Source: an uncultured Pirellula sp. (lineage in GTDB: Bacteria; Planctomycetota; Planctomycetia; Pirellulales; Pirellulaceae). Taken from it: a stretch of 64,000 nt of DNA. The notes beneath the pieces are model-generated. The model was not told the origin of the DNA. It worked only from the letters and a program-made list of their open reading frames with translations, and ran no database searches. This document shows positions 1-39,452 of the stretch, in pieces; position 1 is the first letter of the stretch, and each line of letters opens with the position of its first letter. The position numbers and the translations under genes were made by a program. The stretch spans positions 46-64,045 of the forward strand of contig CAYMXM010000001.1 in the NCBI GenBank assembly GCA_964394065.1, in the 5' to 3' direction.

Positions 1-155
1 GTAAGCGAGGAATAGCGCTGGCAACCAGACATCCACCCAAGTTCTCACAGCACGCCCTTCGTGCCTCAGGGGCGTGCCACCCGGCGCCTTAGATGTTCCG
101 GCAAGGGCTACGTTCATTCGCGACGCTATCCCTCGCTAACGCGTCGGGTTGTGAT
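1..155. repeat. MITE/REP-like palindromic element family B (cut by window start)
   Basis: Ends in ...CCCTCGCTAACGCGTCGGGTTGTGAT and shares the internal CCTCAGG/GCACGAAGGGCGTGCTG block with the copies at 46682, 48864, 51203 and 57877. Confidence 0.8.
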
Positions 156-243
156 GGCAGGACGCGAAGCGTCCTACCACTTAACGCCGATGCGTCAGGC
201 CACGGTGAGGAAATGATAAATTCATCTACCCCTCCCCCTTAAA

Positions 244-1851: not shown

Positions 1852-1852
1852 G

Positions 1853-2812: not shown

Positions 2813-2913
2813 AAACCGTTCGAGGAATTCAACTCGTATCCACTACGCAACTCTAATGTTGTACGTAACTTAGCCGTCTGTTACCAGTCGATAACCCCAG
2901 TTGCACTCCACCA

Positions 2914-3930
2914 ATGCTTGAAGATTACCTAGAAGTTGTTCAACAAAAGTCTGATCTGACTGCCGACCAGATGCAACAAGCAATCACCTGGATGCTGGCG
3001 GGGCGGGTCGAAAACGAACAGATCGGAGCCCTTTTACTCGCTTTGCGTGACAAAGGAGAAGCGGTTAGCGAGCTGGTCGGGGCGGCCCGCGCGATGCGAA
3101 CGATGATGACACCAATCCGGACCAAGCGTTCGAATTTGATCGATACTTGCGGAACGGGTGGAGACGGTGCGAGAACGTTCAACATATCGACCGCAACCGC
3201 GATCGTGGCGGCAGCGGCTGGGGCGCCGATCGCCAAACATGGGAACCGGAAGATCACCAGCGCCACCGGCTCAGCCGATGTGCTGAGTGAACTCGGGGTC
3301 GATATCGAAGCCCCGCGCGAACGTGTAGAACATTGCCTCGACATGTTGGGATTGTGCTTTTGCTTTGCTCCCAAGCTTCATCCCGCAATGAAGCATGTCG
3401 GTGAAGTCCGGAGATCCCTTGGCGTACCAACTCTCTTCAACTACCTGGGGCCTCTTTGCAATCCAGCAAGTGCTCGGTTCCAAATCATCGGCGTCGGAAA
3501 AGAAGAGTTGCAAACCAAAATCGCAGCAGCTCTCCTGCAGCTCCCCCTGGAAGCAGCCGTCGTCGTCCGGGGAGAGGATGGGATGGATGAAGTCACCTTG
3601 TCAGCGCCGACTCAGGTGCATCATATTGCTCACGGAATGCTGACGCAGACAACCTGGACCCCCGCCTCCTTCGGACTCTCCCCGATCCGCGTTGAAGATT
3701 TGATCGTCGACGGCCCGGTCGAAAGTGCGAAAGCGATTCGAAGCATCCTCTCTGGAGAGCGAGGACCGATGCGAGATATTGTTTTGGCAAACTCCGCTGC
3801 TACGCTATGGGTCGCAGGACTAACCCATTCCCTCCCCGATGGAGTGGCAAGATCCGCGAAAGGAATCGACTCCGGCAAAGCCGCAGAACTGCTGGAGCAA
3901 CTAGGTAAAGCGAGCAGAGAGCAGGAGTGA
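2914..3930 (+). CDS. trpD: Anthranilate phosphoribosyltransferase
   Basis: DTCGTGGDG, FNIST, AKHGNR and GEDGMDE motifs. Confidence 0.97.
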   Translation: MLEDYLEVVQQKSDLTADQMQQAITWMLAGRVENEQIGALLLALRDKGEAVSELVGAARAMRTMMTPIRTKRSNLIDTCGTGGDGARTFNISTATAIVAAAAGAPIAKHGNRKITSATGSADVLSELGVDIEAPRERVEHCLDMLGLCFCFAPKLHPAMKHVGEVRRSLGVPTLFNYLGPLCNPASARFQIIGVGKEELQTKIAAALLQLPLEAAVVVRGEDGMDEVTLSAPTQVHHIAHGMLTQTTWTPASFGLSPIRVEDLIVDGPVESAKAIRSILSGERGPMRDIVLANSAATLWVAGLTHSLPDGVARSAKGIDSGKAAELLEQLGKASREQE

Positions 3931-5957: not shown

Positions 5958-6836
5958 ATGTTTCTGGCGACCGTAGTCGACCAGATCGAGACGGAATGCG
6001 ATTTGGATTACACCACGATTGGACTCTATGATCGGGCAGTGAGGAAGTTTTCGGAGTTCATAGGAAAGCCCGCAGAAGATGTAGATCTGGAGCGAGAAAG
6101 CCTGAACAAGTTCATCCAGCACATCCAGTCGTCTAGATCCAACACGACGGCATCGAACTATCGCCGTGGCCTATGTCGAGTCTGGAATTACCTCACCGAA
6201 TTTCACGACAAACCTGCCTACGAAATCCGTAGATTGCGTCGTCCGAAATCAGAAGACACGCCAGTGATTGCATGGTCGACGCAAGACGTATCTGCTATTC
6301 TCAACGCATCAAAAACGCTGGTTGGAACCCTCAAAATCGGCGTCGAGGCTAGCAGCTTCTTTCACGCGATGATTTGGGTCGCGTACGATACCGGCTTAAG
6401 ACCGAGCGATATCTTCCGAATCACCTGGGAGCAAGTGAGCCTACCCCAAAGGTGTATAACGCTTGTCCAAAACAAGACAGGCAAGCCGCATGTCGTTTTC
6501 ATGCGTGATGCAACGATCGCGGCACTTTCGGATATCAGACTTCCGAGCAGAGAGCGGGTGTTTCCCGTAACGTGGGGCTGCACGCGTCGGTGGATGGAAA
6601 AGATCTTCACGTCAGCGGCAGAATATGGGTTCGTTCGAGTTGCGGGGAAAAATCTTGGTACACTTAGAAAGTCGAATGCGACTCAAGTTTACATTGAGCA
6701 CGGAGAGTCGGCAGCAGCGGAATCCCTCGGTCACACAAGCGGTACCAGGATCGTGCGAAAGCACTACATAGACCATCGCGCTCTTCGCAAGTACTCCGTA
6801 CCAACGAATCCACATGACAACCAAAAAAGAGATTGA
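5958..6836 (+). CDS. int: Tyrosine recombinase/integrase 1 (att-proximal)
   Basis: YDTGLRPSD (Arg I), GTLRKS (Arg II), LGHTS and KHY (Tyr); AGAGGGGA RBS; adjacent to att. Confidence 0.9.
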   Translation: MFLATVVDQIETECDLDYTTIGLYDRAVRKFSEFIGKPAEDVDLERESLNKFIQHIQSSRSNTTASNYRRGLCRVWNYLTEFHDKPAYEIRRLRRPKSEDTPVIAWSTQDVSAILNASKTLVGTLKIGVEASSFFHAMIWVAYDTGLRPSDIFRITWEQVSLPQRCITLVQNKTGKPHVVFMRDATIAALSDIRLPSRERVFPVTWGCTRRWMEKIFTSAAEYGFVRVAGKNLGTLRKSNATQVYIEHGESAAAESLGHTSGTRIVRKHYIDHRALRKYSVPTNPHDNQKRD

Positions 6837-7037: not shown

Positions 7038-7067
7038 GAGGCGTTGGGATCCCCCAACGTCTCTTTT
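7038..7067 (+). terminator. Intrinsic terminator of the int transcript
   Basis: GAGGCGTTGGG-ATCC-CCCAACGTCTC-TTTT. Confidence 0.7.
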
Positions 7068-7516
7068 CATTTCCGCGGAAACGCTTCTGCGTTGCCCGCT
7101 TGAGCTGACCAAAACTCGCGGGCTGCGTCCAACGTCAGATCCTTGTGCCCGAGCTTATGATTCACCGCGGATTTCAGCTTCCACTTCCATTCGAGCCGTA
7201 GGGGAAAGTCGGGGGGATTTGTGATCTTCCAATCGCGATAGAAGCGCTTGCAGGAACAGCCGTAGGAAGGAATCTTTTTCTCCCAATCGGTTAGCTGCTC
7301 CTCCGATTCGACCTCTAGGAATAGTTCTCGCCAAAGCCGCTTTCCGGCCTTCGTGAGACGGACCTTTTGCTTTCGGGCTTTGCGATTCTGTTGCTTCGTG
7401 GTTCGAATGAATCGCGAGCCAATCTCGGCAACGCTTTCCGGTTGCCAGTTCGGATTTGGTGCCTCACCGTCGATCAGTGCTTTGAGTTGCCAGTCAGGCA
7501 TTTGCGAGAAGAGCAT
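7067..7516 (-). CDS. ERV/ALR sulfhydryl-oxidase-like protein (divergent)
   Basis: GKRLWRELF...IPSYGCSCKRFY...NPPDF...WKWKLKSAVNHKLGH...TLDAAREFW parallels the ERV1 pattern G..W..LH...PC..C..HF...PP...W....HN.VN..LGK. The ATG directly follows the upstream stop, with a GAGGAGG RBS. Confidence 0.55.
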   Translation of the reverse strand: MLFSQMPDWQLKALIDGEAPNPNWQPESVAEIGSRFIRTTKQQNRKARKQKVRLTKAGKRLWRELFLEVESEEQLTDWEKKIPSYGCSCKRFYRDWKITNPPDFPLRLEWKWKLKSAVNHKLGHKDLTLDAAREFWSAQAGNAEAFPRK

Positions 7517-21418: not shown

Positions 21419-22074
21419 AGGTCAAGCTCCCGTAGTCGCACCGATACGTCCTCCCGAGTTGCTGCAAAACAATTCCGCTCGCGCAGAAGTATTTCGCGTT
21501 CACTCGATTGGATCGATCGACTCGAGGTAGCAGCTTCATACGCTGGAAACGTCACCGGGCCCACGTCGTAGCAGACGCCGATTTCCTTGATCCAACGAAC
21601 ATCGTAGGACTTGCCGTCCTCTTCTTTGATCGTTTCCCAGACTGTGACCGACGGGTAGAAGGAAAAACTGGATCCGGTGACGTCCCCCCGGCTGATCTTC
21701 TCCGCGACGCTCAACCATTGCGGATCGCTGCTCGACTCGTCGCTTTCGTAATACAACCCCACGGCATCGGTGGTGAGGCGACAGGTACCAGCTTCGGTTC
21801 GCCCGAGAACGTAGTTCATGTCGTGATTGAACAAGCAGCGAACGTCTTGCTTCTCGTTGATCACGCGATCGAACGCTCCGGGCATGATCCGCTCGACCAG
21901 GTCATCCCAGAGCCAGTACTCTGTGCTTGGATCGGCAGGGTTGTAGAAGACTGCGCCGTAACCGCGAATGACTTTGGAATCGGACGTCGCGTTCCGCTTC
22001 TGCAACGCCAAACGTCGTTCCCCCGAAGCGGGATTCGAGATTGAGAACCGCCTATGTTGCAACCGCATCGTCAT
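21409..22074 (-). CDS. HK97-type prohead protease
   Basis: RGYGAVF, ERIMPGAF, LFNHD, SSFSF and DVGPVTFPAY motifs. Confidence 0.95.
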   Translation of the reverse strand: MTMRLQHRRFSISNPASGERRLALQKRNATSDSKVIRGYGAVFYNPADPSTEYWLWDDLVERIMPGAFDRVINEKQDVRCLFNHDMNYVLGRTEAGTCRLTTDAVGLYYESDESSSDPQWLSVAEKISRGDVTGSSFSFYPSVTVWETIKEEDGKSYDVRWIKEIGVCYDVGPVTFPAYEAATSSRSIQSSEREILLRERNCFAATREDVSVRLRELDLWE

Positions 22075-23599
22075 CTCCCCGTTCTAAAAGTTTGTCGATT
22101 AGCAAGAGGCTGCTCGCCTCGGCGTGGCCGCGAAGGCTCGCAGCGTCCACACCGAGAAGCGAGTCAAACCACGCGTTGGCCCTGTCCGTGCACTCGGTTC
22201 CGACGAGGGCAGCAACGTTTCGCAAAGTGCTATCGATGATTCCTACAATGTTTTCGCGATCGTCCTCGAGGGGCTTCCCTCGATCGACACGGATGCAAGC
22301 TCGATTGATGGCACGAGCAAAAGCCTCCTCGAGGAGCGAACGGTAGATTTCGTTCCGATCCGTTTCCGCGGAATCGGTTTCCCCAACGGGGGAAAGATTG
22401 AGCGGGTAGTAGTACGTGTCCCCACCCTCGTAGCTATCGAGGTTCTCCCACCCGCGTGTTTCGTTCGCACTGAAACGACCGGCCTGAATCCCCGTGATGG
22501 CAATCGTATTTCGCGTTGCAGCATCAGCCCAAAGGAGGGCGTTGACGTTGTTCTCGATGTACATGCCAGCGGCCCGTTCCTCTTCGGTCAACAACTTTGT
22601 CGTGCATTCCGCACAGTTGCCAATTAACCAGTGGGACAGAGCGCCGTCGTGGTAGTTTCCCTTGGCGGCTTCCTCCGAGTTGAAGCTGATGGAATCTTTG
22701 AGCCCGAGTCTAGACGGTTGAATGTTGTACATGCGAGCCACCTCGCGAACCTGGTTCTCGTCCAATTCGAGAAGCTGGGCTTTCTGTGGATCCACTTGGG
22801 TCGACACCCATTGCATGTTGTCTCGAATCACAAGCGTCTTGAATGCGTTGTCCGAACCCGTGAATCGCTCTTCGATTTGCTTACGTGCCTTGGTTACTGC
22901 CTTTGCCGAAGTGCCTGGTTTGACTTGCAGAATCCCCCCCGCGTTCATGTTGTTGCGGAAGAATCGGGCTTCAAACTGCTTTGCCGCCAATGCGATTGCA
23001 AAGTCCTCCCGGAACAAGCGAATAGTGTTAGCCCCTTGCACGCCGTCGATCGAGAGCCCCTCGAGGTGGAGTACGTCGCTAGCGGCAAAGATTCGCGTTC
23101 CTTTGCGTGACTGTGTCACGCATTGAAGTTTGCCATTGATTCGTGCCATCCAGGTGCGGTCCGGCAGGAGTTGGTAAAGCCCGATCACCTCACCACGGTT
23201 ATTGCGGTCGATCCAAGCGTAAGCGTTCCCCCAAATCAGAGCCGAGGTAAAGTAGCGACGCCAGAACTTGTAACCGTTCACCTCCTCATTGGCCATGCTG
23301 TAGCGATGAATTACTTTTTGAACGGGGTGGCCATCAGCAATCTGGCGCCCCGACCTCGTCTTTTGATAGACGTTCAGAGGCAACTTGGCGCAGTCGCCAG
23401 ATATCATGCTGACCGCTTGATTGAGCGGTGCATACCCCAGCACTTTCGATGCTGTGACGGTGCTACCGGTGTCTCCCGTGTAGCTTCCAGTGGCCTCGGA
23501 AGCCAAGATATCAGCCGTCACCGGTTGCGCTGGATCTTCCAGCGAACGTGATACCCACTCCGCAGCTCGTCTTACTCCTCTTGTGAACCAATTGGCCAT
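22052..23599 (-). CDS. HK97-family portal protein
   Basis: AVSMISGDCAKLPL, LIWGNAY, EVARMYNI and ANETRGWENL motifs. Confidence 0.95.
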   Translation of the reverse strand: MANWFTRGVRRAAEWVSRSLEDPAQPVTADILASEATGSYTGDTGSTVTASKVLGYAPLNQAVSMISGDCAKLPLNVYQKTRSGRQIADGHPVQKVIHRYSMANEEVNGYKFWRRYFTSALIWGNAYAWIDRNNRGEVIGLYQLLPDRTWMARINGKLQCVTQSRKGTRIFAASDVLHLEGLSIDGVQGANTIRLFREDFAIALAAKQFEARFFRNNMNAGGILQVKPGTSAKAVTKARKQIEERFTGSDNAFKTLVIRDNMQWVSTQVDPQKAQLLELDENQVREVARMYNIQPSRLGLKDSISFNSEEAAKGNYHDGALSHWLIGNCAECTTKLLTEEERAAGMYIENNVNALLWADAATRNTIAITGIQAGRFSANETRGWENLDSYEGGDTYYYPLNLSPVGETDSAETDRNEIYRSLLEEAFARAINRACIRVDRGKPLEDDRENIVGIIDSTLRNVAALVGTECTDRANAWFDSLLGVDAASLRGHAEASSLLLIDKLLERGDDDAVAT

Positions 23600-23604
23600 G
23601 ATAT

Positions 23605-25407
23605 CTATACGACGAAAACGTCGTCCTCTCCGTCGTCCTCGACCTCAACTCCCCGACCGACGACCGTCTGAAGACTCATCAAAAGCGATTGGGGGCCGTC
23701 GACCTTCTTGAAGTCCCCACGGGCTTGCTTGACGAGTCGTTTAAAACCGTTCGTGTTGGTGATCGCTACGGCGTTTGCCATCTGCCAAGTCATGACGGGG
23801 TTTCCGTTGTGCCGTATCCGTTGTGAGATGATGCGTCTCTCGCACTCTTGAACTACGGGCCCGTAGTGGATGATTTGCTGAGGAAACTCGACTCGTTCCG
23901 CTTCGGTCATCGCCTCAAGCTCTTGAGTGATGTTCTCAGCTTGGTGCGGGTCGTAGTAAAACTCGTTGACGTGAAACATCTTGATGATCTCAGCAAGGTC
24001 TTGCGTCAGGATCGGATAATCGATAACACGGCCTGGCGTTAATCGAATGTGACCTAGCTCGGCCCAGCGGATGTAGTTCACTCGTTTCTGTTGGCGTCTC
24101 GCTTCCACTTCGGGTAGCCAGAACCAAGTCCGAGTCCATAGGATCCCGTCGGGATCTTCGATGCAAAGCGTAGCCGACACGGTGTCCCGTACCGAAGCTA
24201 GGTCCAAGCCGAGCGCGCTGGTGATGGCGTCGATCTTTCGAAGATCCTCATCGGTGTACGCCTTAAAACAATCAATCCGCTTCTTTGCGTTCTTACGTTC
24301 CGTGGGCCCAGAGTCCCAATCGGAAATGCCCCTCGGAAGGGCCGAATCTATCCAACTGTTCATCGACGTTACCCAGATCCCGAGGCGCAAGCGTTTGAAA
24401 GCGATCCATTGCGAAGGATCATCCTTCGCCGCATGGTAGTCAGCACGGAAGGTGCTAAGTTTCAGTGGGCTATCTTTGTCGGTTCCCAACGATGGGTTGG
24501 CTTTGAACCAGTTGGCTTCGTCGTGGGGATCGTCGTCTTTCGAAAGGCCATACACCGTTCCGAGAAACGTCTCGTCGATCGACCGACCGCTATTTATTTC
24601 AAGGGCTTGGTCGTGTGCGTACTTGCAAACGTTTTCCCCTTCTTCGCCGGCAGTCGTGATCGCAATGAATGCTCCCTCCGGTTGGGAGGCGAGCATCCAC
24701 TTGAGTGCGTTGTAAAACTCGAATCCTTTCCAACGATGGAACTCATCAGCCAAACAATGACCGTTTACACCATCGGCCGAAGCGGGATCCGCCGCGATCA
24801 CCTCCCACGTCGAGTCCCCATACTCGACGGTGTAGAACCCTTCCAGCTTCTTCACTTGAGCAGCTTCCGATAGCTCTGGGCAGTTTCGTATCTGTCGAAT
24901 CGCATGCATCAGGCACTTCTGCGCCTGCTTCTTGGTTGTCGCTGCGAGATAGAGTGCGATTTGTCGCATCGCCCCATCCTCACCGACCGAGTCGGCAAAC
25001 AGCAGATAGTTTCCTAGCAACGAAAGAAACGGTGTCTTACCGTTCTTCTTCGGAAGTTCGGCGTACCACATCCGGAACCGGCGGACGTTGTAGCCCCACT
25101 CCTCGTTGAAACGAACCCAGCCAAAGAACTGAGATGAGCAATCCACTTGCCACGGGAGGAGGCGGAAGGGCAGTCCGGCCCAAGCACCTTCGGTCAACGT
25201 GCCGTGGCGATCGGCGAACTCAAGCCAATGTTCGGCCCGCCTGATATCGAACGTACAGCCGTTGAGCATGGCACGCTCGTCGGCTTCCTCCCCAGCTCCT
25301 TGCCGAATGTACTTGAGCCACCCTTCACGCTTTGCTTTGGCGCGAAGCGAAAGGAGGTCGGTACTGTTCGGCTTCTTGCTCTTGATGTTCTTACGCGGTG
25401 CTATCAA
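23605..25407 (-). CDS. terL: Terminase large subunit
   Basis: Walker A PKKNGKT, Walker B LADEFH, LGLDLAS and KKVDG; likely TTG start overlapping the terS stop. Confidence 0.95.
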   Translation of the reverse strand: MIAPRKNIKSKKPNSTDLLSLRAKAKREGWLKYIRQGAGEEADERAMLNGCTFDIRRAEHWLEFADRHGTLTEGAWAGLPFRLLPWQVDCSSQFFGWVRFNEEWGYNVRRFRMWYAELPKKNGKTPFLSLLGNYLLFADSVGEDGAMRQIALYLAATTKKQAQKCLMHAIRQIRNCPELSEAAQVKKLEGFYTVEYGDSTWEVIAADPASADGVNGHCLADEFHRWKGFEFYNALKWMLASQPEGAFIAITTAGEEGENVCKYAHDQALEINSGRSIDETFLGTVYGLSKDDDPHDEANWFKANPSLGTDKDSPLKLSTFRADYHAAKDDPSQWIAFKRLRLGIWVTSMNSWIDSALPRGISDWDSGPTERKNAKKRIDCFKAYTDEDLRKIDAITSALGLDLASVRDTVSATLCIEDPDGILWTRTWFWLPEVEARRQQKRVNYIRWAELGHIRLTPGRVIDYPILTQDLAEIIKMFHVNEFYYDPHQAENITQELEAMTEAERVEFPQQIIHYGPVVQECERRIISQRIRHNGNPVMTWQMANAVAITNTNGFKRLVKQARGDFKKVDGPQSLLMSLQTVVGRGVEVEDDGEDDVFVV

Positions 25408-25856
25408 CGCTCCGTCTTTCTCCGTGCGAAAGCTTGGATTCCAGCCCCTTTGTTCGAGGCGATCCCCCCATGCTTGCGCATTTGGGCTAAGGAGAACGGA
25501 TGCAAACCGAACTTTGCCCAAAGCCGTTGAAGGTTCGCGAGCGCTTTCTCGCGCATACGCACCTGCGGGGATTCGGACTCGTACCCACTTTCCGAAGTGA
25601 ACGTAGCTCGGGACGGATCTTCCATGAGCCAGTTGGTCAGCCTTCGGTATTCACCGTAGGTTCGGCACAACTCCGCAAAGGTCTCAAGGTGCAGCTCGGT
25701 CAGTAGGTTGATCTCGACGAGCTGGGGAGCTAGTCGATTCCAATACGCCTTGCCAATCTCACACAACCCAAACCCTTCGGGATTTGGGGCGCTCTGAATG
25801 GGTGGTGACTTCTTCGAGACTTTCTTAGCAGCCTTCTTGGTGACCTTCTTGGCCAT
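25404..25856 (-). CDS. terS: Terminase small subunit (P27-like)
   Basis: W..LAPQL..., LCRTY, and ESPQV...KFGLHP motifs. Confidence 0.9.
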   Translation of the reverse strand: MAKKVTKKAAKKVSKKSPPIQSAPNPEGFGLCEIGKAYWNRLAPQLVEINLLTELHLETFAELCRTYGEYRRLTNWLMEDPSRATFTSESGYESESPQVRMREKALANLQRLWAKFGLHPFSLAQMRKHGGIASNKGAGIQAFARRKTER

Positions 25857-26132
25857 CTACTCCCCCTTCGCAGTCTTGATGTCGTGGCATTGTTTGCACA
25901 AGGCTTGCCAGTTCCCTCGTGCCCAGAAGAGCGATCGGTTCCCACGGTGAGGTACAACGTGATCGACGACCGTTGCCGCAATGAAGCGATCTTCCCGAGC
26001 ACACTGAACGCAGAACGGATGTTCCCGCAGAAACGCGGCGCGGGCGTGACGCCATTGCCGATCGTAGCCGCGGTCGGCACTCGATCGACGTCGCGTCGGT
26101 TTTGCCTTGAGTCGCTTCGCCCGATCAGCCAT
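25857..26132 (-). CDS. Packaging-associated HNH endonuclease (gp74-like)
   Basis: RGYDRQW, CVQC, VVDHVVPHRG and NWQALCKQCHDIKT motifs. Confidence 0.92.
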   Translation of the reverse strand: MADRAKRLKAKPTRRRSSADRGYDRQWRHARAAFLREHPFCVQCAREDRFIAATVVDHVVPHRGNRSLFWARGNWQALCKQCHDIKTAKGE

Positions 26133-26442
26133 CGGTCATCGGTGCAACGATCGAAAGCGTTCGCTTACATTCCGAAGCCGCTAGACTCTTGAGTTCGGCG
26201 GTACGCTCTGGCCCTACCTCCTTCAGGAACTCATCCGCCCAAGCAACGTAAGTTCGCGATGGGGTCCAGCAGAGGGTATAGCCGGCGCGAATGACCGACG
26301 ACTTGCCGGATTTCTCCAGCTCGACCCGAAACTCGTCCTCCAATTGCTCGCATCTCTTCTTGAACGTTTCGGCTTCGCGGCCTAGTGCGAGTCGTTTCTC
26401 GTTGCAACGATGCCACTCGTTAAGCTTGGTTTCAAGAGACAT
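26125..26442 (-). CDS. Hypothetical phage protein
   Basis: 105 aa with an N-terminal coiled coil; coupled to both neighbours. Confidence 0.7.
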   Translation of the reverse strand: MSLETKLNEWHRCNEKRLALGREAETFKKRCEQLEDEFRVELEKSGKSSVIRAGYTLCWTPSRTYVAWADEFLKEVGPERTAELKSLAASECKRTLSIVAPMTDG

Positions 26443-26938
26443 AAGTCGTATCCTCTTTTACGCGAATGATCGGACTGATGACCCATTCCAGCCATCGCCA
26501 AAATTGGAAGTAGTCAAGAACCGGATTGAGCCAATCGGTTATGACGCAGTAGCGAACCTCGAAAGGACTTCGATGATGTTCGCCATGGTGTCGTGGGCTT
26601 TGTAACAGCCCCGTTTCCTGAAGTGCACGAATGAAGGGGCTACACTTCTGGTGGGCCCAGGCATGTACTTCATTCGCCTGAGAGGCAAAGACGAAAACCC
26701 AGGAGGGATAGATCGCGAAGGCGATCGCAGCCGGGAGGATGGTTGTCCAGTTACGTGTCCAATAATCCCCCTTCAGGAACGCGGCTGGTTGCGCGTGATG
26801 CAAGCTGTTCGGTTTGGCGATGTATTTGCCGATGATTGGCCACTTCTCTTCGAAGTACCGATCCTCGATCCAATGCCAGAAACCTGATAGAAAGTCAGCA
26901 AGCAACCAAGCCACGAGAAGCTCGGTTAGGAAAACCAT
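26432..26938 (-). CDS. CarF/TMEM189/FAD4-family lipid desaturase
   Basis: ADFLSGFWHWIED, LHHAQP, NEVHAWAH, PRHHGEHH, YCVITDWLN and FWRWLE motifs. Confidence 0.88.
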   Translation of the reverse strand: MVFLTELLVAWLLADFLSGFWHWIEDRYFEEKWPIIGKYIAKPNSLHHAQPAAFLKGDYWTRNWTTILPAAIAFAIYPSWVFVFASQANEVHAWAHQKCSPFIRALQETGLLQSPRHHGEHHRSPFEVRYCVITDWLNPVLDYFQFWRWLEWVISPIIRVKEDTTYVS

Positions 26939-28029
26939 TTGCTGAGCTGCCCCCGAAAGACGTAGCCTGCGATTCCTCCCGCAGCGAACCCGACAGCAAG
27001 AACAACTAGGTTCCGAAGCAACGACCCGAAAAACGAGATTACTGGTCGATCGGGCTTATTAGGTCGTAGCAAACCCGTGTCGCCATCGGGCTGTTGAGGC
27101 TCCGGCTTGTTCGGCCGAAGTCGTCCCCCTGTGATGGCGTCCACCAGGTCCTCGTCACCCTGCTCGATATCCTGCGTTGGCCAAGCAGCTCGGTAAAGCG
27201 TTTCCGCGGAATCGGTCGCATCGGCATCGAGGCAACTCACTTCCCTGGCGTGGGGTGGTAAGGGCTCGAGCGACTTAGGGAGTCGACCTTGCAGAGCATT
27301 CAGCACGAACGGCATCGATTGTCCCAGTCCTTCACCGCCCCCACCCCATGTGAGAAGACCAACGACCTCGGGACCATTGGAGGTGTAGTCGATGACGCTT
27401 GAACCCGATCGGCCACCGATCGCCTCGGGATGCCAAGTTAGAATCTGCCCCTCGGATCGATTCAACTTGAGCACCTGAAGGGAAGGCCATTCGCATCGAG
27501 GACACCCATAGGTGGTGATCAATGCGGATGTGTCCGGTTGTCGGTTCGCGATGGGGACCGGCTTCACGTCGGTACCGAATCCTTCTGCAGCTCGTAAGAT
27601 CGCGAAGTCGATCGACATACCTCGACCGTAACCACTTGCGACGATCGATGCGGTGGATCGCTGACTCCGGCCGTTGAGTTCCCAACGTTCGACATTGACG
27701 ACTCGTCCCTTGGTGGTCCCTGCTACGTGGGCATTGGTCAAGATAAGAGACCGCCCATTTGCATCTTTGCCAACGATAGTACCGCTTCCGCAAACGCCAC
27801 TTACCGTAACCCGAACCGTGGCCCGAATTACCTGCTCGAACGCATCGCCACCAGCGCCGGCTTCTGCTGGGCTCACCGAGCTGGTCAACCCTTGCGAGTC
27901 GGCTTGGTTCAGCGTGTGAATGTGAATTCCCTCGACGGGGAGACAACCGTTCGGTCCACAGACCACTTGAGCCATTGCTGGCGTGACGAAGAGCGTCACG
28001 AGAGCACTGAGTACTGCAAAGCGCAGCAT
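26926..28029 (-). CDS. Secreted trypsin-like serine protease with C-terminal membrane anchor
   Basis: Signal peptide MLRFAVLSALVTLFVTPAMA; triad motifs LTNAHV, IDFAIL and GGRSGSSV; C-terminal TM helix LVVLAVGFAAGGIAGYVF. Confidence 0.88.
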   Translation of the reverse strand: MLRFAVLSALVTLFVTPAMAQVVCGPNGCLPVEGIHIHTLNQADSQGLTSSVSPAEAGAGGDAFEQVIRATVRVTVSGVCGSGTIVGKDANGRSLILTNAHVAGTTKGRVVNVERWELNGRSQRSTASIVASGYGRGMSIDFAILRAAEGFGTDVKPVPIANRQPDTSALITTYGCPRCEWPSLQVLKLNRSEGQILTWHPEAIGGRSGSSVIDYTSNGPEVVGLLTWGGGGEGLGQSMPFVLNALQGRLPKSLEPLPPHAREVSCLDADATDSAETLYRAAWPTQDIEQGDEDLVDAITGGRLRPNKPEPQQPDGDTGLLRPNKPDRPVISFFGSLLRNLVVLAVGFAAGGIAGYVFRGQLSKWFS

Positions 28030-28033
28030 CTTC

Positions 28034-28222
28034 TCACCTCTTTCTTGGAGACAGACTTTTAGAGATTCTCCAGACAGTGACGCGACTGATGCCAAACTTT
28101 TTGGCGATGTCCTTCGTGCGAACTCCAGATCTTTTCGCAACCGCGACTCGCATTCGGTCTTGGCCGCTTAGCAATTTTTTTTGCTGTCCGTTCTTGAAAC
28201 GCTGGTACTGTCTTGATCTCAC
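28034..28222 (-). CDS. Small helix-turn-helix protein
   Basis: GVRTKDIAKKFGISRVTVWRI HTH. Confidence 0.75.
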   Translation of the reverse strand: MRSRQYQRFKNGQQKKLLSGQDRMRVAVAKRSGVRTKDIAKKFGISRVTVWRISKSLSPRKR

Positions 28223-28301
28223 GACTAAGAATTCGGCGGCAGTATAGTGGGGCGGATGGGTGATGTTTCAATGTACCCAAACACCCCACCCTAAAAACAT
28301 T

Positions 28302-28372
28302 CCAAAAATGTGCGCGCCTACTTCGCGGTCAACGGCTGGGCCCGGACGCCAAAATTTTGCCCCCCTCCCCGA
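28302..28372 (-). other. Candidate cos/packaging site
   Basis: Minus strand reads GGGGAGGGGGGCAAAATTTT...GACCGCG...GCGCGCACATTTTTGG, resembling the layout of cos regions in HNH/P27-terminase phages (recognition only). Confidence 0.4.
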
Positions 28373-28568
28373 CCGTCGTGCGGCTTTCCGCACAGCCCGT
28401 CCTGTCCCTGAACTAACAGGTCGGTCGGTCTGAAGCGCCATTTCCCACCGAGTACCTTCTATGCAAACGAAGGTCTTAATGGGTATGATCCGAACGTTTG
28501 ACTACTAACTCTGGTTCGGATGAGCCGGTAGCAAAAGCCTCGTAGAGCTGGAGGACACATAGAAAAGT

Positions 28569-30290
28569 ATGGACAGAGTAACAACCAATCTATTGCAAGA
28601 GTTCGTAAGGGAAAACCAACATGAGTCCTTGCAAGTATCTGAGCAGTTTGAACACTTTGTTAATTTTGCGACGGTGTCCCGCGAGTACGCAGATACCTTT
28701 GACCACACCTCCGTCCATGTGGGAAAAGACGGAAACCCAGGAATCGACGGGGTTGGAATCATCGTAAACGGAGCGATCGTTGACGATGCCGAGGAGATTG
28801 ACGATCTATTGGAAAAAAACAAGTACCTCGAAGTTACGTACGTTTTCGTGCAAGCAAAAACGAGCAGTTCGTTCTCAAGTGGCGATATCAGCACGTTCAT
28901 TGAGTCTGTTCGGGATTTTTTCCGTGAGGTTCCCGGACAGGTACAAAGCGAGGACCTCAAGAGAAAGTTTGACCTTCAATCTAAAATCCTCAGTCATTCG
29001 GGGAAGATGCGAGCTAATCCAAAGTGCAGCTTGTACTACGTCACGACTGGCACATGGGTCGGTGATCAGAATTTAGTTTCCCGAATAGAGTCGGGTAAAA
29101 AGGATCTTGAAGACACAGAGCTGTTTAGTACAGTTTCCGTGACTGCATGTGGAGCGAGGGAAATCCAACAGTACTATCGTCAAAGCAAGGAGACGCTCGA
29201 CGCAGAGTTTGATTTCACTAACAAAGTGACGCTCCCATCGATCCCCGGTATCAACGAGGCACATATAGGCATCCTCCCAATGGGAACGATTCTTCGCCTT
29301 ATTTCCGACAGTGTCGGAAACGTGAGAAAGGCCGTTTTTGAGGACAATATTCGAGACTTTCAAGGTAGCTCGGAGATTAACGAACGAATCCAAACAACAT
29401 TGAAGGATGACGAAGCGGCGCTGAGATTTGCCGTTTTGAACAACGGAATTACCATCGTCTGCAGGAACCTCAGGTTTACAGGAGCACGCTGCAAGATTGA
29501 TGGCTTTCAGGTTGTGAACGGTTGCCAAACCTGTCACGTCCTTTTCAATTGCTCCTCCGTTAATCACGCGGATAATGTTTTTGTTCCGGTTAAGCTAATT
29601 GCGACACAGGACGAAGACATTGTCAATTCGATCATTCGCTCAACCAATTCACAGAACGAGGTCAAGCCTGAGCAGCTAGAAGCGATGACGGAGTTCCAAA
29701 AAACATTGGAGACTTTCTATAAGACCTATAGGAAAACTCCGGGAGAGCTTTTTTATGAACGCCGATCAAAGCAATATGCTTCCGAACCTATAGAAAAAAC
29801 TCGAATTATCACGATTCCCACTCAGATCAAATCGTTTTCCGCGTTGTTTCTGGCGGTCCCCCATCGCGTCGCAGGCTACTACGGAACCATACGCGAAAGA
29901 ATGAACGATCAAATTTTCAAACCAGAACATAAACCTATCGCATACTACGCTTGCGGCTATGCGTGGTACAGGCTTGAGACACACTTCCGAGTGAAGGGAG
30001 TTGACTTTAACAAGTGGAGGTCGCTTAAGTGGTATATGCTGATGATTTTTGCGAGAATGGCAGCTGGTGCTCCCCCACAAGCAGCAACAAGGGAATGTGA
30101 GAGATATTGCGAAAAGCTCATAAAGAAGCTGGATGACACCCAAGAAGTTAAGCGATTGTTCGACTCAATTGCAACTCGGCTCTCAAAGATTAATCCAAAG
30201 ACGGATAAGGATTCGGTGAAGACTCTGAATTTCAGAGATTCTATTTTGGATGGTTTCAAAGACTTGCTTCTTCCAGAGAAAAATCGATAA
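28569..30290 (+). CDS. AIPR family protein (abortive infection phage resistance), moron
   Basis: FEDNIRDF, FAVLNNGITI, QVVNGCQT and STNSQN motifs; opposite strand; AT-richer than its neighbours. Confidence 0.88.
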   Translation: MDRVTTNLLQEFVRENQHESLQVSEQFEHFVNFATVSREYADTFDHTSVHVGKDGNPGIDGVGIIVNGAIVDDAEEIDDLLEKNKYLEVTYVFVQAKTSSSFSSGDISTFIESVRDFFREVPGQVQSEDLKRKFDLQSKILSHSGKMRANPKCSLYYVTTGTWVGDQNLVSRIESGKKDLEDTELFSTVSVTACGAREIQQYYRQSKETLDAEFDFTNKVTLPSIPGINEAHIGILPMGTILRLISDSVGNVRKAVFEDNIRDFQGSSEINERIQTTLKDDEAALRFAVLNNGITIVCRNLRFTGARCKIDGFQVVNGCQTCHVLFNCSSVNHADNVFVPVKLIATQDEDIVNSIIRSTNSQNEVKPEQLEAMTEFQKTLETFYKTYRKTPGELFYERRSKQYASEPIEKTRIITIPTQIKSFSALFLAVPHRVAGYYGTIRERMNDQIFKPEHKPIAYYACGYAWYRLETHFRVKGVDFNKWRSLKWYMLMIFARMAAGAPPQAATRECERYCEKLIKKLDDTQEVKRLFDSIATRLSKINPKTDKDSVKTLNFRDSILDGFKDLLLPEKNR

Positions 30291-38128: not shown

Positions 38129-38361
38129 GATTTCACCTCGCATGGCCTCAGATCGTCGAGGCTCCACAGATCCGTCCGTTTTCGCCAGCCGGAACGGACG
38201 ACCACCTCAAAGAATCCCTTGAACAGTCCTTGCTGCAACACCTCGCCACGTCCGCATACGCGCGATAGGTGGTGTTCACGCGATCGCACGAACACGCGAT
38301 CCCCGGGGCGCGGGCTCCAGCCATCGACTGGCTTCGCGAAAGCTCGTTGTCTCGGTGTCAT
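38125..38361 (-). CDS. Small SH3/KOW-like hypothetical protein
   Basis: PGDRVFV...GEVL...EVVV...LDDLRP; overlaps both neighbours. Confidence 0.6.
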   Translation of the reverse strand: MTPRQRAFAKPVDGWSPRPGDRVFVRSREHHLSRVCGRGEVLQQGLFKGFFEVVVRSGWRKRTDLWSLDDLRPCEVKS

Positions 38362-39452
38362 GACGCGAGCCTCTCAAGCAGGGATTCTTCCACCTTGAGA
38401 TAGTTGTTCCTCGCAACCATCGGGGAATGCCCAAGAAGCATTCCGGCCTGCTGAGGTGTGATTGTCGGATCCGACGCCAAATGATTCGCACGCGTTGCTC
38501 GTAAGGCGTTGTATGGGGGCGCCCAACGTGGGACGCCGGCGCGGGTCTGCAAACCGTAGAGCCATTCGTAGCAGTTGTTCTCCGTGATCCTCGATAAGAT
38601 GCGTTCCTCCGGATCTCGGCCGCTGAGCAGCTCGGGGAGATGCTCGCGAATGGCCGGGTAGACCGGATTGACCCGGACGCGTTGATTCTTCGTCTCTTGA
38701 ATGTAGATACGGTTGCGATCAAGCTCGATATCGCAAGCGCGCAGGGCGAGCCCTTCCCGAAGGCGACAACCGGTCCATTGGCAAAGCCGCAACCAATAAC
38801 GTTCTTCTGTGTCGGTGCAAAGCTCGACCAGGTAGTCGATCCATTCCCAATGCACCGTGTCTTTGGAGCGTGGGGCAATGGTGCGGTTCAAAGCATCGCA
38901 CGGGTTAGTCTTGATCGCTCCTTTACTTCGGAGCCACTCAAAGAACAACCGCCAGTTCTTCGCGATGCGAGCCAGTGTATTCTCAGCGTATGCGTAGGAC
39001 TCCTCGAGGTCGGCTAGCAGGTCCGTGAGGCACCCCTCATCGATGCGAGGTACGTCGATCGATAGACGCTGCAGCTTGCGAACGTCGCGTAGAACTGCCT
39101 CGTCAGTTGCGACGTCAGTCGATTGTTCTTGGCGAAATACCTCGAACTCATCGATCCAATCCTCCCACGATCGCCGCTCCGGATCGATTGCGTGCGAGTC
39201 CTCGAGGTGCAACCGCTCCTGCAGGTACGCGAACTGTTTCCGCGGAATCGCTTTGAGCCAATCGGTCGTCGCTTGGGCGATCGGCAGCTCCAACTGCTGC
39301 GCCTCGAGCAATCGTCCGACGTGCCGCTTTAGTGTCGACCACTCACGTTCCCCAAGCTTGAACCGCTTGAAGCAAAGCGTGTCCTGTCGGCCAACGCGGG
39401 GCCCAGCCTGATGCCGGAAGATGAGTTGTCGATCGACGTCTCGGCTAAACAT
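38358..39452 (-). CDS. Tyrosine recombinase 2 (in the early operon)
   Basis: WTGCRLRE, NALRATR and LLGHS...NNY motifs, plus a core-binding domain. Confidence 0.88.
   Translation of the reverse strand: MFSRDVDRQLIFRHQAGPRVGRQDTLCFKRFKLGEREWSTLKRHVGRLLEAQQLELPIAQATTDWLKAIPRKQFAYLQERLHLEDSHAIDPERRSWEDWIDEFEVFRQEQSTDVATDEAVLRDVRKLQRLSIDVPRIDEGCLTDLLADLEESYAYAENTLARIAKNWRLFFEWLRSKGAIKTNPCDALNRTIAPRSKDTVHWEWIDYLVELCTDTEERYWLRLCQWTGCRLREGLALRACDIELDRNRIYIQETKNQRVRVNPVYPAIREHLPELLSGRDPEERILSRITENNCYEWLYGLQTRAGVPRWAPPYNALRATRANHLASDPTITPQQAGMLLGHSPMVARNNYLKVEESLLERLAS

What the first reader, a model, noticed from the sequence alone, without database searches (positions are those of the whole stretch)
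26432..26938. Phage-encoded CarF/TMEM189-type lipid desaturase in the late operon
Seen: a compact 168-aa membrane protein with all the His boxes (HW..D, HH..P, H.W.H, H..HH) and YC.IT.W.N, overlapping both neighbours in the packaging operon. Established: this family includes Myxococcus CarF and animal TMEM189/PEDS1 (plasmalogen vinyl-ether formation) and plant FAD4. Inference: the phage remodels host membrane lipids late in infection, for example to weaken membranes for lysis or to buffer oxidative stress. The substrate cannot be determined from sequence.
Basis: partly seen in the sequence, partly recalled or inferred. Interest (0 to 1): 0.8.

Follow-up and report, generated by a model that had tools for sequence, protein, structure and literature searches.

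The report
Compact phage-borne CarF/FAD4-family lipid desaturase
A prophage in a Pirellulaceae (planctomycete) genome carries an intact, miniaturised membrane lipid desaturase of the CarF/FAD4/PEDS1 family. It belongs to a large, apparently undescribed clade found in hundreds of phage genomes, is almost certainly not the plasmalogen-making type, and its substrate is unknown.

Summary
Window 26432-26938 (-) encodes a 168-aa protein that matches Pfam PF10520 Lipid_desat (E 5.8e-39). It has all eight family histidines and the essential Asp, and it overlaps both neighbours in a run of Trypsin_2 peptidase, desaturase, 105-aa ORF, HNH, TerS, TerL, portal.

It is not a one-off. At least 200 IMG/VR contigs, some complete with terminal repeats, encode relatives. 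These form essentially one phage clade inside a "compact" subfamily. That subfamily lacks the first transmembrane helix, has a shortened hydrophobic hairpin, and carries Asn where all canonical forms, including the host's own 248-aa copy (33% identical), carry Phe. dN/dS is 0.04-0.09.

It fails the plasmalogen-desaturase tests: Gly replaces the PEDS1-specific His, and it scores 73 bits against a 500-bit CarF equivalog cut-off.

In about half of the dereplicated phage representatives the gene directly follows a membrane-tethered, probably extracytoplasmic serine or cysteine protease and/or a CxxC thioredoxin-fold protein, inside late or structural operons. Three common endolysin families are absent from the 18 such phage records tested.

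Best reading: a late-expressed enzyme that remodels host membrane lipids, possibly as part of an envelope-disruption module. Substrate, timing and benefit are untested.

The parts
26432..26938 (-). Compact PF10520 lipid desaturase, 168 aa. Invariant H22, D26, H47, H48, H92, H96, H118, H121, H122; N44 in place of the family Phe; G57 in place of the PEDS1-specific His. Hydrophobic segments 1-21 and 64-88.
26926..28029 (-). Trypsin_2 (S1) serine peptidase. Signal peptide MLRFAVLSALVTLFVTPAMA, triad H/D/S conserved in relatives, invariant CPRC motif, C-terminal TM anchor. Probable ATG at 28029 behind GAGGTGAG (the longest ORF reaches 28140). Its stop overlaps the desaturase start by 13 nt.
28034..28222 (-). 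62-aa ORF with a helix-turn-helix-like sequence, first ORF after the conserved non-coding block. The Aureliella prophage has an HTH_23/HTH_28-like gene at the same position.
   Evidence: The HTH assignment in the window rests on sequence inspection only.
28241..28375 (-). Non-coding block about 90% conserved with the SH501 prophage while its flanks diverge. Contains TTGAAA (28271-28266), a 19-nt spacer and TATACT (28246-28241). Candidate late promoter and/or cos region.
   Evidence: Not called by the consensus scan, so weak.
26125..26442 (-). 105-aa soluble ORF of unknown function, overlapping the desaturase stop by 11 nt. Conserved in the SH501 prophage, absent in the Aureliella prophage.
25857..26132 (-). 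HNH endonuclease (packaging-associated)
25404..25856 (-). Terminase small subunit (Terminase_4)
23605..25521 (-). Terminase large subunit
22052..23599 (-). Portal protein
28569..30290 (+). AIPR/Abi-alpha-like abortive-infection gene on the opposite strand, in a variable island just upstream of the operon. Context only; not part of the desaturase module.

Best explanation
The gene encodes a catalytically competent, oxygen-dependent di-iron membrane desaturase of the PF10520 family, in a miniaturised form. It has one N-terminal TM helix, a short re-entrant hydrophobic hairpin and the complete 8-His + Asp metal site. It belongs to a phage-borne clade that circulates mainly among phages and prophages of Pirellulales planctomycetes and is under strong purifying selection. 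In this prophage it is most likely co-transcribed with the late genes: promoter-like block, small HTH ORF, secreted membrane-tethered serine protease, desaturase, HNH, terminase, head genes. By analogy with the two characterised family members, which both act on intact glycerophospholipids at carbons next to the glycerol linkage (PEDS1 at delta-1' of the sn-1 alkyl chain, FAD4 at delta-3 of the sn-2 acyl chain), it probably introduces a double bond near the head-group end of a host membrane lipid chain late in infection. It is not a plasmanylethanolamine (plasmalogen) desaturase. Because most Pirellulaceae genomes have no PF10520 gene at all, the phage brings in a new activity rather than boosting a host pathway. 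The benefit to the phage is inferred, not shown. The recurrent pairing with probably extracytoplasmic proteases or CxxC thioredoxin-fold proteins suggests remodelling of the cell envelope around assembly and release. My odds: family membership and intact active site about 0.95; phage-clade membership about 0.9; late co-transcription about 0.65; lipid substrate near the head group about 0.5; not PEDS1 about 0.85.
For: Family and active site: PF10520 at 134 bits. The eight His and the Asp are invariant in 39 phage, 51 chromosomal compact and 120 canonical sequences. These are the residues shown to be essential in CarF and PEDS1 (PMC9131029, PMC8960569). The AF2 model is confident (pLDDT 92.7, pTM 0.86) and shows a helix-turn-helix hairpin at residues 59-85. 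Constraint: dN/dS is 0.04-0.09 where dS is measurable, and dS is saturated in more distant pairs. Phage origin: the same synteny occurs in the Pirellulaceae SH501 and Aureliella helgolandensis prophages. At least 200 IMG/VR contigs encode relatives, including records with direct terminal repeats and 100% CheckV completeness. In the tree the viral and prophage sequences form one group of 39 rows; the labels need 6-7 changes against 30-35 in shuffles. Operon embedding: overlapping stop/start codons; no minus-strand terminator or promoter-like site between 28140 and TerS. In other phage lineages the gene sits between capsid/cement genes and head-tail-joining, neck, major-tail and tape-measure genes. 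Across phage-clade loci the median gap to a same-strand downstream gene is -4 nt. Not PEDS1: the H22-to-H47 spacing equals the mouse H96-to-H121 spacing, which places N44 at F118 and G57 at H131 (PMC8960569). The NF045946 CarF equivalog model gives 73 bits against a cut-off of 500. New activity: only 10 of 121 Pirellulaceae genomes have any PF10520 match, and the same-genus complete genome has none. Partners: directly upstream lies an S1 protease in 31, a Trx-fold CxxC protein in 10, a papain-like C1 protease plus Trx in 5, and S1 plus Trx in 1 of the 84 loci with enough upstream sequence.
Against: The candidate promoter has a 19-nt spacer and was not called by the consensus scan. There is no biochemical evidence for any member of the compact subfamily. 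The one bacterial non-myxobacterial, non-Leptospira homologue tested in the literature (Bradyrhizobium) did not complement a carF deletion (PMC9131029), and I do not know whether it is of the compact type. The replacement of the Phe that stacks on an iron-ligand His (F118A retains 6% activity in mouse PEDS1, PMC8960569) by an invariant Asn could mean different chemistry (hydroxylase or another oxidase) or a different substrate class. The 25-residue hydrophobic segment could in principle be a single membrane pass, which would split the metal site; AF2 argues against this but was not validated. The SH-aLRT support for the phage clade is only 80. 16 of 35 dereplicated phage representatives show no recognisable partner upstream.
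Confidence: 0.55

Rival explanations
1. The desaturase is a working component of a non-canonical lysis or envelope-disruption cassette. A Sec-exported, membrane-tethered protease (S1 or papain-like) and/or a thiol-disulfide oxidoreductase attacks the protein-rich planctomycete envelope, while the inner-membrane desaturase alters or destabilises the membrane, or times or releases the tethered enzymes, in place of a holin.
For: The cassette sits where lysis genes sit in model phages: first genes of the late operon just before the terminase here and in L001, L002, L087 and L088, and between head and tail genes in other lineages, as in P2 (established knowledge). The protease family is exchanged non-orthologously (S1 versus C1) while the adjacency is kept. 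All partner types carry a signal peptide or an N-terminal anchor. No Pfam endolysin family was found among the window prophage ORFs of at least 100 aa that were scanned, about 45 ORFs; overlapping alternative-frame ORFs were not scanned. Phage_lysozyme, Amidase_2 and SLT are absent from 18 of 18 desaturase-bearing viral records, 9 of them at least 90% complete.
Against: A strictly conserved di-iron site, with its need for O2 and a reductant, is an odd requirement for a membrane-lesion function, and desaturation does not by itself rupture a membrane. No spanin-like or holin-like small TM protein was identified. Only three endolysin families were tested; divergent or other endolysins (M15, M23, GH19, GH25, GH108, CHAP and so on) were not excluded, and lack of canonical endolysins may be general for planctomycete phages whether or not they carry the desaturase. 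16 of 35 dereplicated phage representatives have no recognisable partner. The idea also appears in an unchecked first-reader note (e1-5273098), which is not independent evidence.
Confidence: 0.22
2. It is a lysogenic-conversion gene (moron). It is expressed from the resident prophage and changes the lysogen's membrane lipids for stress tolerance (cold, oxidative or light stress) or for superinfection exclusion.
For: The window element is an integrated prophage carrying other host-benefit cargo just upstream (the AIPR abortive-infection gene). The conserved promoter-like block directly upstream of the HTH-protease-desaturase run could be active in lysogeny. Characterised family members have stress-related roles (CarF in singlet-oxygen signalling, FAD4 in chilling and redox; PMC9131029, PMC12456178).
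Against: The gene overlaps both neighbours and has no promoter-like or terminator-like site of its own. In other lineages it lies inside structural-gene runs. It is also present in complete non-integrated genomes with terminal repeats and in records of 145-149 kb.
Confidence: 0.12
3. It is a true plasmanylethanolamine desaturase (CarF/PEDS1 function) that makes plasmalogens in the infected cell.
For: Same Pfam family, with all eight shared His and the essential Asp. NCBI names the 84%-identical SH501 protein 'fatty acid desaturase CarF family protein'.
Against: The ninth His, required in CarF and human PEDS1 and absent from the non-complementing plant and alphaproteobacterial homologues, is Gly here and G/Q/N/K across the phage clade (PMC9131029, PMC8960569). 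The conserved Phe is Asn. The score is 73 bits against the 500-bit equivalog cut-off. No ether-lipid precursor pathway was examined in the host.
Confidence: 0.05
4. It is a di-iron oxidase acting on a non-glycerolipid substrate (for example ornithine lipid, hopanoid, carotenoid or a lipid-linked intermediate), or a hydroxylase rather than a desaturase.
For: There is a weak secondary hit to FA_hydroxylase PF04116 (E 0.001). The top, non-significant PDB fold hit is the Scs7p fatty-acid 2-hydroxylase. The F-to-N change lies next to an iron ligand (PMC8960569). The host's canonical copy sits next to an OlsE-like ornithine-lipid hydroxylase gene.
Against: Both characterised PF10520 enzymes are desaturases of intact phosphoglycerolipids. 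No substrate-pathway genes accompany the phage copies.
Confidence: 0.06

Closest known systems
FAD4 (plant/algal chloroplast 16:1 delta-3-trans desaturase of phosphatidylglycerol), PF10520
   Same: Same Pfam family. It has the eight-His motif and the essential Asp, and it lacks the PEDS1-specific ninth His. FAD4 activity depends on or is stimulated by a thioredoxin-fold protein (PRXQ; PMC12456178 citing Horn et al. 2020), and 16 phage-clade loci place a membrane-anchored CxxC thioredoxin-fold gene directly upstream of the desaturase.
   Different: FAD4 proteins are longer, and the Phe equivalent to mouse F118 is totally conserved in them (PMC8960569). The phage protein has Asn there, Gly rather than the plant Arg at the ninth-His position, no first TM helix and a shortened hairpin. 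The window prophage has no Trx-like neighbour. The product is unknown.
CarF / PEDS1 (TMEM189) plasmanylethanolamine desaturase
   Same: Same family and same metal-site residues. The spacing from His box 1 to His box 2 is identical (25 residues).
   Different: Nine His are required there and eight are present here (Gly57). Phe is replaced by Asn. The experimentally shown four-TM topology contrasts with two hydrophobic segments here. The distance between box 2 and box 3 is 21 residues shorter than in mouse. The NCBIfam equivalog score is 73 of the 500 bits needed.
Uncharacterised compact (about 170-200 aa) chromosomal PF10520 proteins of Bacteroidota, Verrucomicrobiota, Acidobacteriota and Proteobacteria
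   Same: Same architecture and the same invariant Asn. Together with the phage clade they form a group separated from canonical forms with 100% SH-aLRT support.
   Different: They are 36-46% identical. They sit in ordinary chromosomal contexts (LysR regulators, CobW, SDR, FAD oxidoreductase) without phage genes. None has a known function.
Cyanophage-encoded lipid desaturases (Roitman et al., PMC5776448) and giant-virus desaturases
   Same: Virus-encoded membrane lipid desaturases regarded as auxiliary metabolic genes. The only significant viral fold matches in BFVD are a Harvfovirus 'Lipid desaturase domain' protein and one unnamed protein.
   Different: From my own knowledge, not checked here: the cyanophage enzymes belong to the classical FA_desaturase family and mirror host cyanobacterial desaturases. 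Most hosts of the present clade have no PF10520 gene, and the gene sits in late/structural operons next to proteases.

Membership tests
PF10520 Lipid_desat (CarF/PEDS1/FAD4 superfamily) | Match to the Pfam model above the gathering threshold | tested here: met
   134.4 bits against a cut-off of 26.4, model positions 1-171 of 175
PF10520 Lipid_desat (CarF/PEDS1/FAD4 superfamily) | Eight conserved, essential histidines (mouse H96, H121, H122, H187, H191, H215, H218, H219) plus the essential Asp (D100) | tested here: met
   H22, H47, H48, H92, H96, H118, H121, H122 and D26 are present, with matching internal spacings; invariant in the 36-sequence alignment and in all three groups (PMC8960569)
PF10520 Lipid_desat (CarF/PEDS1/FAD4 superfamily) | Phe equivalent to mouse F118, totally conserved in PEDS1 and FAD4, which stacks on the iron-ligand His187 | tested here: not met
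   Asn44 here. Asn in all 89 compact sequences with a residue at this column; Phe in 120 of 120 canonical sequences
PF10520 Lipid_desat (CarF/PEDS1/FAD4 superfamily) | Four-transmembrane-helix topology (shown experimentally for CarF) | tested here: not met
   Only two hydrophobic segments (1-21 and 64-88), against 29-50, 56-85 and 122-164 in the host copy. AF2 shows a short helix-turn-helix at 59-85. The NCBIfam match starts at model position 58.
CarF/PEDS1 plasmanylethanolamine desaturase (functional equivalog) | Ninth histidine (CarF H113, mouse H131), required for function and absent in non-complementing homologues | tested here: not met
   Gly57; G/Q/N/K across the phage clade (PMC9131029)
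CarF/PEDS1 plasmanylethanolamine desaturase (functional equivalog) | Score above the NCBIfam NF045946 equivalog cut-off | tested here: not met
   73 bits against 500; the host copy scores 178 bits
CarF/PEDS1 plasmanylethanolamine desaturase (functional equivalog) | Forms a vinyl-ether bond / complements M. xanthus delta-carF | not testable with these tools
   Needs a wet-lab assay
FAD4-type desaturase | Functional dependence on a thioredoxin-fold redox partner (PRXQ) | tested here: inconclusive
   No Trx-like gene lies next to the window copy. A CxxC Trx-fold gene lies directly upstream in 16 related phage loci (Foldseek matches to thioredoxins, best E 7.8e-4, prob 1.0). This is adjacency only.
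FAD4-type desaturase | Delta-3-trans double bond in the sn-2 16:0 chain of phosphatidylglycerol | not testable with these tools
   Needs lipid analysis
Phage auxiliary metabolic gene | Encoded within bona fide phage genomes and maintained by selection | tested here: met
   Prophage hallmark genes flank it. Relatives occur in IMG/VR genomes with direct terminal repeats. dN/dS is 0.04-0.09.
Phage lysis cassette | Holin plus cell-wall hydrolase (plus spanin) acting together at the end of infection | tested here: inconclusive
   Position and neighbours are compatible. No canonical endolysin was found. No holin or spanin was identified, and there is no functional data.

The most novel reading that the evidence does not exclude
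Phages of planctomycetes use an enzymatic envelope-disruption module in place of the classical holin-endolysin pair: a membrane-tethered extracytoplasmic protease and/or thiol-disulfide oxidoreductase acting together with a minimal di-iron lipid desaturase. Oxygen-dependent modification of membrane lipids would then be an integral step of phage release, possibly with the desaturase's catalytic face or its redox supply on the periplasmic side through the CxxC partners.
Probability: 0.2. Interest if true: 0.85.

Novelty: new variant of a known kind. Interest (0 to 1): 0.55.

Why it matters
Virus-encoded lipid desaturases are known from cyanophages and giant viruses. I found no paper describing PF10520 (CarF/FAD4/PEDS1-family) enzymes in bacteriophages. 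PHROGs v4 has no family for this protein, and the GenBank phage copies are annotated as hypothetical.

The family is of wide interest because PEDS1 makes human plasmalogens and no structure exists. A 168-aa natural minimal version that keeps the full metal site and is present in hundreds of phage genomes would be useful in three ways:
- It is a tractable object for the structure and mechanism of this enzyme class.
- It is a new type of phage accessory gene that gives most hosts an activity they lack.
- It offers a handle on how phages of planctomycetes, whose envelope is unusual and whose lysis genes are unknown, leave the cell.

A cultured strain with a complete genome, Pirellulaceae SH501, carries two such prophages, so the hypotheses can be tested directly.

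Tried and rejected
- Sequence search of the PDB found no relative. Foldseek against the PDB gave only a non-significant top hit to the Scs7p hydroxylase (E 1.2).
- PHROGs gave no hit for the desaturase, the protease or the 105-aa ORF.
- I tried to obtain named CarF, PEDS1 or FAD4 sequences for a joint tree. The search with the host copy returned only unnamed or generically named bacterial canonical forms. The comparison with PEDS1 and FAD4 therefore rests on published residue numbers and identical motif spacing, not on an alignment made here.
- Recent capture from the host was rejected. The host's own copy is only 33% identical and falls in the other major clade.
- A decaying or inactive relic was rejected on the invariant metal ligands and low dN/dS.
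- An internal promoter or terminator around the gene: none was found by the consensus scan, but that scan is weak for planctomycetes.
- The 105-aa downstream ORF as holin or spanin was rejected: it has no hydrophobic segment in its sequence and it is absent from the Aureliella prophage.
- Caveat on the neighbourhood survey: my ORF calling in fetched loci is a crude longest-ORF, greedy method, so neighbour counts are approximate.
Full report
**Observation.** The minus-strand ORF at 26432-26938 (ATG start, 168 aa) is real. It matches Pfam PF10520 Lipid_desat at 134.4 bits, E 5.8e-39, against a cut-off of 26.4, over model positions 1-171 of 175. A weak secondary hit to FA_hydroxylase has E 0.001. 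The ORF overlaps the upstream gene by 13 nt and the downstream ORF by 11 nt. That ORF overlaps HNH by 8 nt, and HNH abuts TerS.

**Setting.** On the minus strand the order is:
- a secreted, C-terminally anchored Trypsin_2 peptidase (26926-28029)
- the desaturase
- a 105-aa ORF
- HNH endonuclease
- TerS
- TerL
- portal
- S78 prohead protease
- further genes, then the HK97-type capsid, connector and tail-completion genes

Host genes flank the element at about 1-3930 and from 42148. There are two integrase-family genes (5958-6836 on the plus strand, 38358-39452 on the minus strand) and a ParB-like gene. An AIPR/Abi-alpha abortive-infection gene lies on the opposite strand just upstream (28569-30290). 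The assembly is a 5.8-Mb, 926-contig genome of a Pirellulaceae-like planctomycete: the closest homologues come from Pirellulaceae, and the nearest prophage is in strain SH501.

**The gene is one of many.** A protein search found 137 relatives of 160-215 aa. The 84%-identical protein of Pirellulaceae SH501 and the 66%-identical protein of Aureliella helgolandensis lie in prophages with the same order: Trypsin_2, desaturase, (105-aa ORF), HNH, TerS, TerL, portal, S78 protease.

A scan of IMG/VR found 200 stretches encoding a relative. The records holding 18 of the fetched loci include four with direct terminal repeats and nine that are at least 90% complete, with sizes from 30 to 149 kb. GenBank phages hold only two copies, neither with a functional name: Erythrobacter phage vB_EliS-L02 (40% identity; annotated 'hypothetical protein') and an uncultured 595-kb phage whose record has no annotation (32%). 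PHROGs v4 has no family for the protein. BFVD gives only a Harvfovirus 'Lipid desaturase domain' protein and one unnamed protein as significant fold matches. Literature searches for PF10520, CarF plus phage, Kua-ubiquitin plus phage, and TMEM189 plus auxiliary metabolic found no description of phage copies. Cyanophage desaturases are described in PMC5776448; from my own knowledge, not checked here, they belong to a different family.

**Where it sits in the family.** The host genome has a second PF10520 gene on contig 18. It encodes 248 aa, scores 189 bits, is only 33% identical to the prophage copy, and lies next to a lipid-kinase-like gene and an OlsE-like hydroxylase gene.

A scan of one genome per GTDB species found more than 550 stretches related to the compact form, across many phyla. 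In a maximum-likelihood tree of 105 dereplicated sequences:
- The compact forms separate from 15 canonical planctomycete-type sequences with 100% SH-aLRT support.
- Inside the compact group, the viral and prophage-context sequences plus four Pirellulales contigs form one group of 39 rows (support 80).
- The chromosomal compact copies of Bacteroidota, Verrucomicrobiota, Acidobacteriota and Proteobacteria fall outside that group.
- The viral/chromosomal/canonical labels need 7 changes on the tree, against a mean of 42.5 in shuffles.

The outside copies have ordinary neighbours: LysR, CobW, SDR and FAD oxidoreductase genes. The Erythrobacter phage copy groups with Sphingomonadales sequences, which points to a separate acquisition. 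Only 10 of 121 Pirellulaceae genomes carry any PF10520 gene, and a complete genome of the same genus carries none. The phage gene therefore usually adds an activity that the host lacks.

**Anatomy.** The eight histidines and the aspartate that mutagenesis showed to be essential in CarF and PEDS1 (PMC9131029, PMC8960569) are invariant in all three groups. The H22-to-H47 spacing equals the mouse H96-to-H121 spacing. Mouse F118 therefore maps to residue 44 and mouse H131 to residue 57.
- Residue 44 is Asn in every compact sequence with a residue at this column (38 phage, 51 chromosomal) and Phe in 120 of 120 canonical sequences.
- Residue 57 is Gly here, G/Q/N/K in the phage clade, and R/C/S in the canonical planctomycete forms.
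- Hydropathy shows two hydrophobic segments (1-21 and 64-88). The host copy has three regions that correspond to four helices.
- The distance from box 2 to box 3 is 43 residues here, against a phage median of 50, a canonical value of 59, and 64 in mouse by published numbering.
- AlphaFold2 with a 36-sequence alignment gives a confident model (pLDDT 92.7, pTM 0.86) in which residues 59-85 form a helix-turn-helix, consistent with a re-entrant hairpin rather than a single pass.
- NCBI's CarF equivalog model matches only from position 58 and gives 73 bits against a cut-off of 500.
- dN/dS between phage copies is 0.04-0.09 where dS is not saturated.

The protein is thus a constrained, probably active, minimal member of the family. 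It fails the tests that define plasmanylethanolamine desaturases.

**Neighbours across phages.** I clustered ORFs around the gene in 164 loci. The partner counts below come from 99 phage-clade loci, of which 84 have at least 1.5 kb of upstream sequence.

| Directly upstream, same strand | Loci (of 84) |
|---|---|
| Trypsin_2 (S1) protease | 31 |
| Membrane-anchored CxxC protein only | 10 |
| Papain-family C1 peptidase + CxxC protein | 5 |
| S1 protease + CxxC protein | 1 |
| Two signal-peptide CxxC proteins (unknown family) | 3 |
| None recognised | 34 |

After dereplication, 19 of 35 representatives have such a partner.
- **S1 protease.** It keeps its His/Asp/Ser triad, an invariant CPRC motif and a C-terminal TM segment in all 28 distinct sequences. 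In the window it has a typical signal peptide.
- **CxxC protein.** Its C-terminal domain has a thioredoxin fold. The evidence is Pfam Thioredoxin_2 E 0.0047, PHROG thioredoxin 8e-4, a PDB profile hit to glutaredoxin at E 0.095, and an AF2 domain (pLDDT about 85-90) that matches thioredoxin-fold chains by Foldseek (best hit a complex I subunit at E 7.8e-4; E. coli thioredoxin 1.5e-3; prob 1.0).
- **C1 peptidase.** It scores 22.3 bits against a cut-off of 20.7.

In two other phage lineages the cassette lies between capsid/cement genes and head-tail-joining, neck, major-tail and tape-measure genes. In L087 and L088 it lies just before a gpA-type terminase. Where the next gene lies on the same strand (81 of 94 loci upstream, 59 of 98 downstream), the median gap is 34 nt upstream and -4 nt downstream.

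**Transcription in the window.** No sigma-70-like or terminator-like site lies on the minus strand between the protease start and TerS. Upstream of the protease, a block of about 110 nt (28265-28375) is nearly identical in the SH501 prophage while its flanks diverge. Just downstream of it, the hexamers TTGAAA and TATACT (28271-28241) keep their positions across a diverged 19-nt spacer. They are followed by a 62-aa HTH-like ORF and a GAGGTGAG-ATG start for the protease. This is consistent with one late transcript that starts there, or with a cos or regulatory region. It is weak evidence, and RNA data could not be consulted.

**Lysis question.** None of the prophage ORFs of at least 100 aa that I scanned (about 45; overlapping alternative-frame ORFs were left out) matches a Pfam endolysin family. 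Phage_lysozyme, Amidase_2 and SLT are each absent from all 18 desaturase-bearing viral records tested, although each family was detected in 3 to 8 of the 14 control genomes. Trypsin_2 is present in 6 of the 18. The cassette's positions are the classical positions of lysis cassettes: first late genes before the terminase, or between head and tail genes (established knowledge of lambda and P2). This keeps a lysis or envelope-disruption role alive. It does not show one: only three endolysin families were tested, no holin or spanin was found, and desaturation is not an obvious lytic chemistry.

**Verdict.**
- *Shown:* an intact PF10520 enzyme gene of a distinct compact subfamily; a member of a large phage-borne clade; under purifying selection; embedded in late-type operons; frequently next to probably extracytoplasmic proteases or thioredoxin-fold proteins; not of the PEDS1 type by three sequence tests.
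- *Inferred:* late co-transcription; a host glycerolipid substrate modified near the head group, by analogy with PEDS1 and FAD4, the only characterised members; a role in envelope remodelling around release.
- *Unknown:* substrate, product, electron donor, membrane orientation, and benefit to the phage.

Two earlier unchecked notes of this scan describe related phage copies, one of them beside a CPPC thioredoxin-fold gene (e1-3271130, e1-3580207). A first-reader note proposes the protease/lipid lysis cassette for this same stretch (e1-5273098). My results agree with them, but those notes are not independent evidence.

Noticed in passing
G000 contig C18 (locus L003 1126-1872, +): The host carries its own canonical 248-aa PF10520 gene (189 bits). 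It lies between a divergently oriented gene that by sequence inspection looks like a diacylglycerol/lipid kinase (no family search was run on it) and a FA_hydroxylase-family gene that weakly matches the ornithine-lipid hydroxylase OlsE (126 bits against a cut-off of 475). This may be a small lipid-modification cluster. Canonical copies are also patchy in Pirellulaceae.
   Followed up: partly
window 28241-28375 (-): A non-coding block is almost identical to the SH501 prophage while its flanks diverge. It is G-rich (GGGGAGGGGGGCAAAATTTT) and is followed by TTGAAA-N19-TATACT. It could be the late promoter or regulatory region, or the cos site of this HNH-terminase phage.
   Followed up: partly
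window 28569-30290 (+): An AIPR/Abi-alpha-type abortive-infection gene (PHROG 1841, E 1.4e-85) sits on the opposite strand in a variable island between the ParB-like gene and the late operon. The SH501 prophage has an N6_N4 methyltransferase and another gene at the same place.
   Followed up: no
window 7067-41800 and 18 IMG/VR records (L006-L075): No Pfam endolysin family was found among the scanned prophage ORFs of at least 100 aa. Phage_lysozyme, Amidase_2 and SLT are absent from all 18 desaturase-bearing viral records, nine of them at least 90% complete. How these phages lyse their hosts is open.
   Followed up: partly
L077 1402-2229, L080, L083, L085: In one phage lineage a papain-family (Peptidase_C1) protease replaces the trypsin-like protease upstream of the thioredoxin-like gene and the desaturase. 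This is a non-orthologous replacement within the same cassette.
   Followed up: partly
window 26926-28029 (-) and 27 relatives: The trypsin-like partner has an invariant G-C-P-R-C-E-W-P motif about 30 residues before the catalytic Ser. Every recurrent upstream partner except the papain-like C1 peptidase (S1 protease, Trx-fold protein, clusters 88 and 89) carries a CxxC motif together with a signal peptide or membrane anchor. The motif may be structural or redox-active.
   Followed up: no
L086 and L097 (CP197422.1, Pirellulaceae SH501): The cultured strain SH501 carries two different prophages, each with a Trypsin_2-desaturase pair. In one the pair lies before HNH/TerS. In the other it lies between the capsid and tape-measure genes.
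   Followed up: partly
L005 (Erythrobacter phage vB_EliS-L02, 2337-2873): The copy in this 150-kb cultured phage lies between phoH and the portal gene. It groups with Sphingomonadales chromosomal copies, not with the planctomycete phage clade, which indicates an independent acquisition.
   Followed up: partly
window 7067-7516 (-): A first-reader note calls this 149-aa ORF ERV/ALR-like. Pfam and NCBIfam gave no hit at E 0.01 or better. The Aureliella prophage does carry a gene with a recorded Evr1_Alr hit.
   Followed up: no
window 5958-6836 (+) and 38358-39452 (-): Two Phage_integrase-family genes are associated with the element, one at its tail-side edge and one inside the early region. Prophage boundaries and att sites were not determined.
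   Followed up: no
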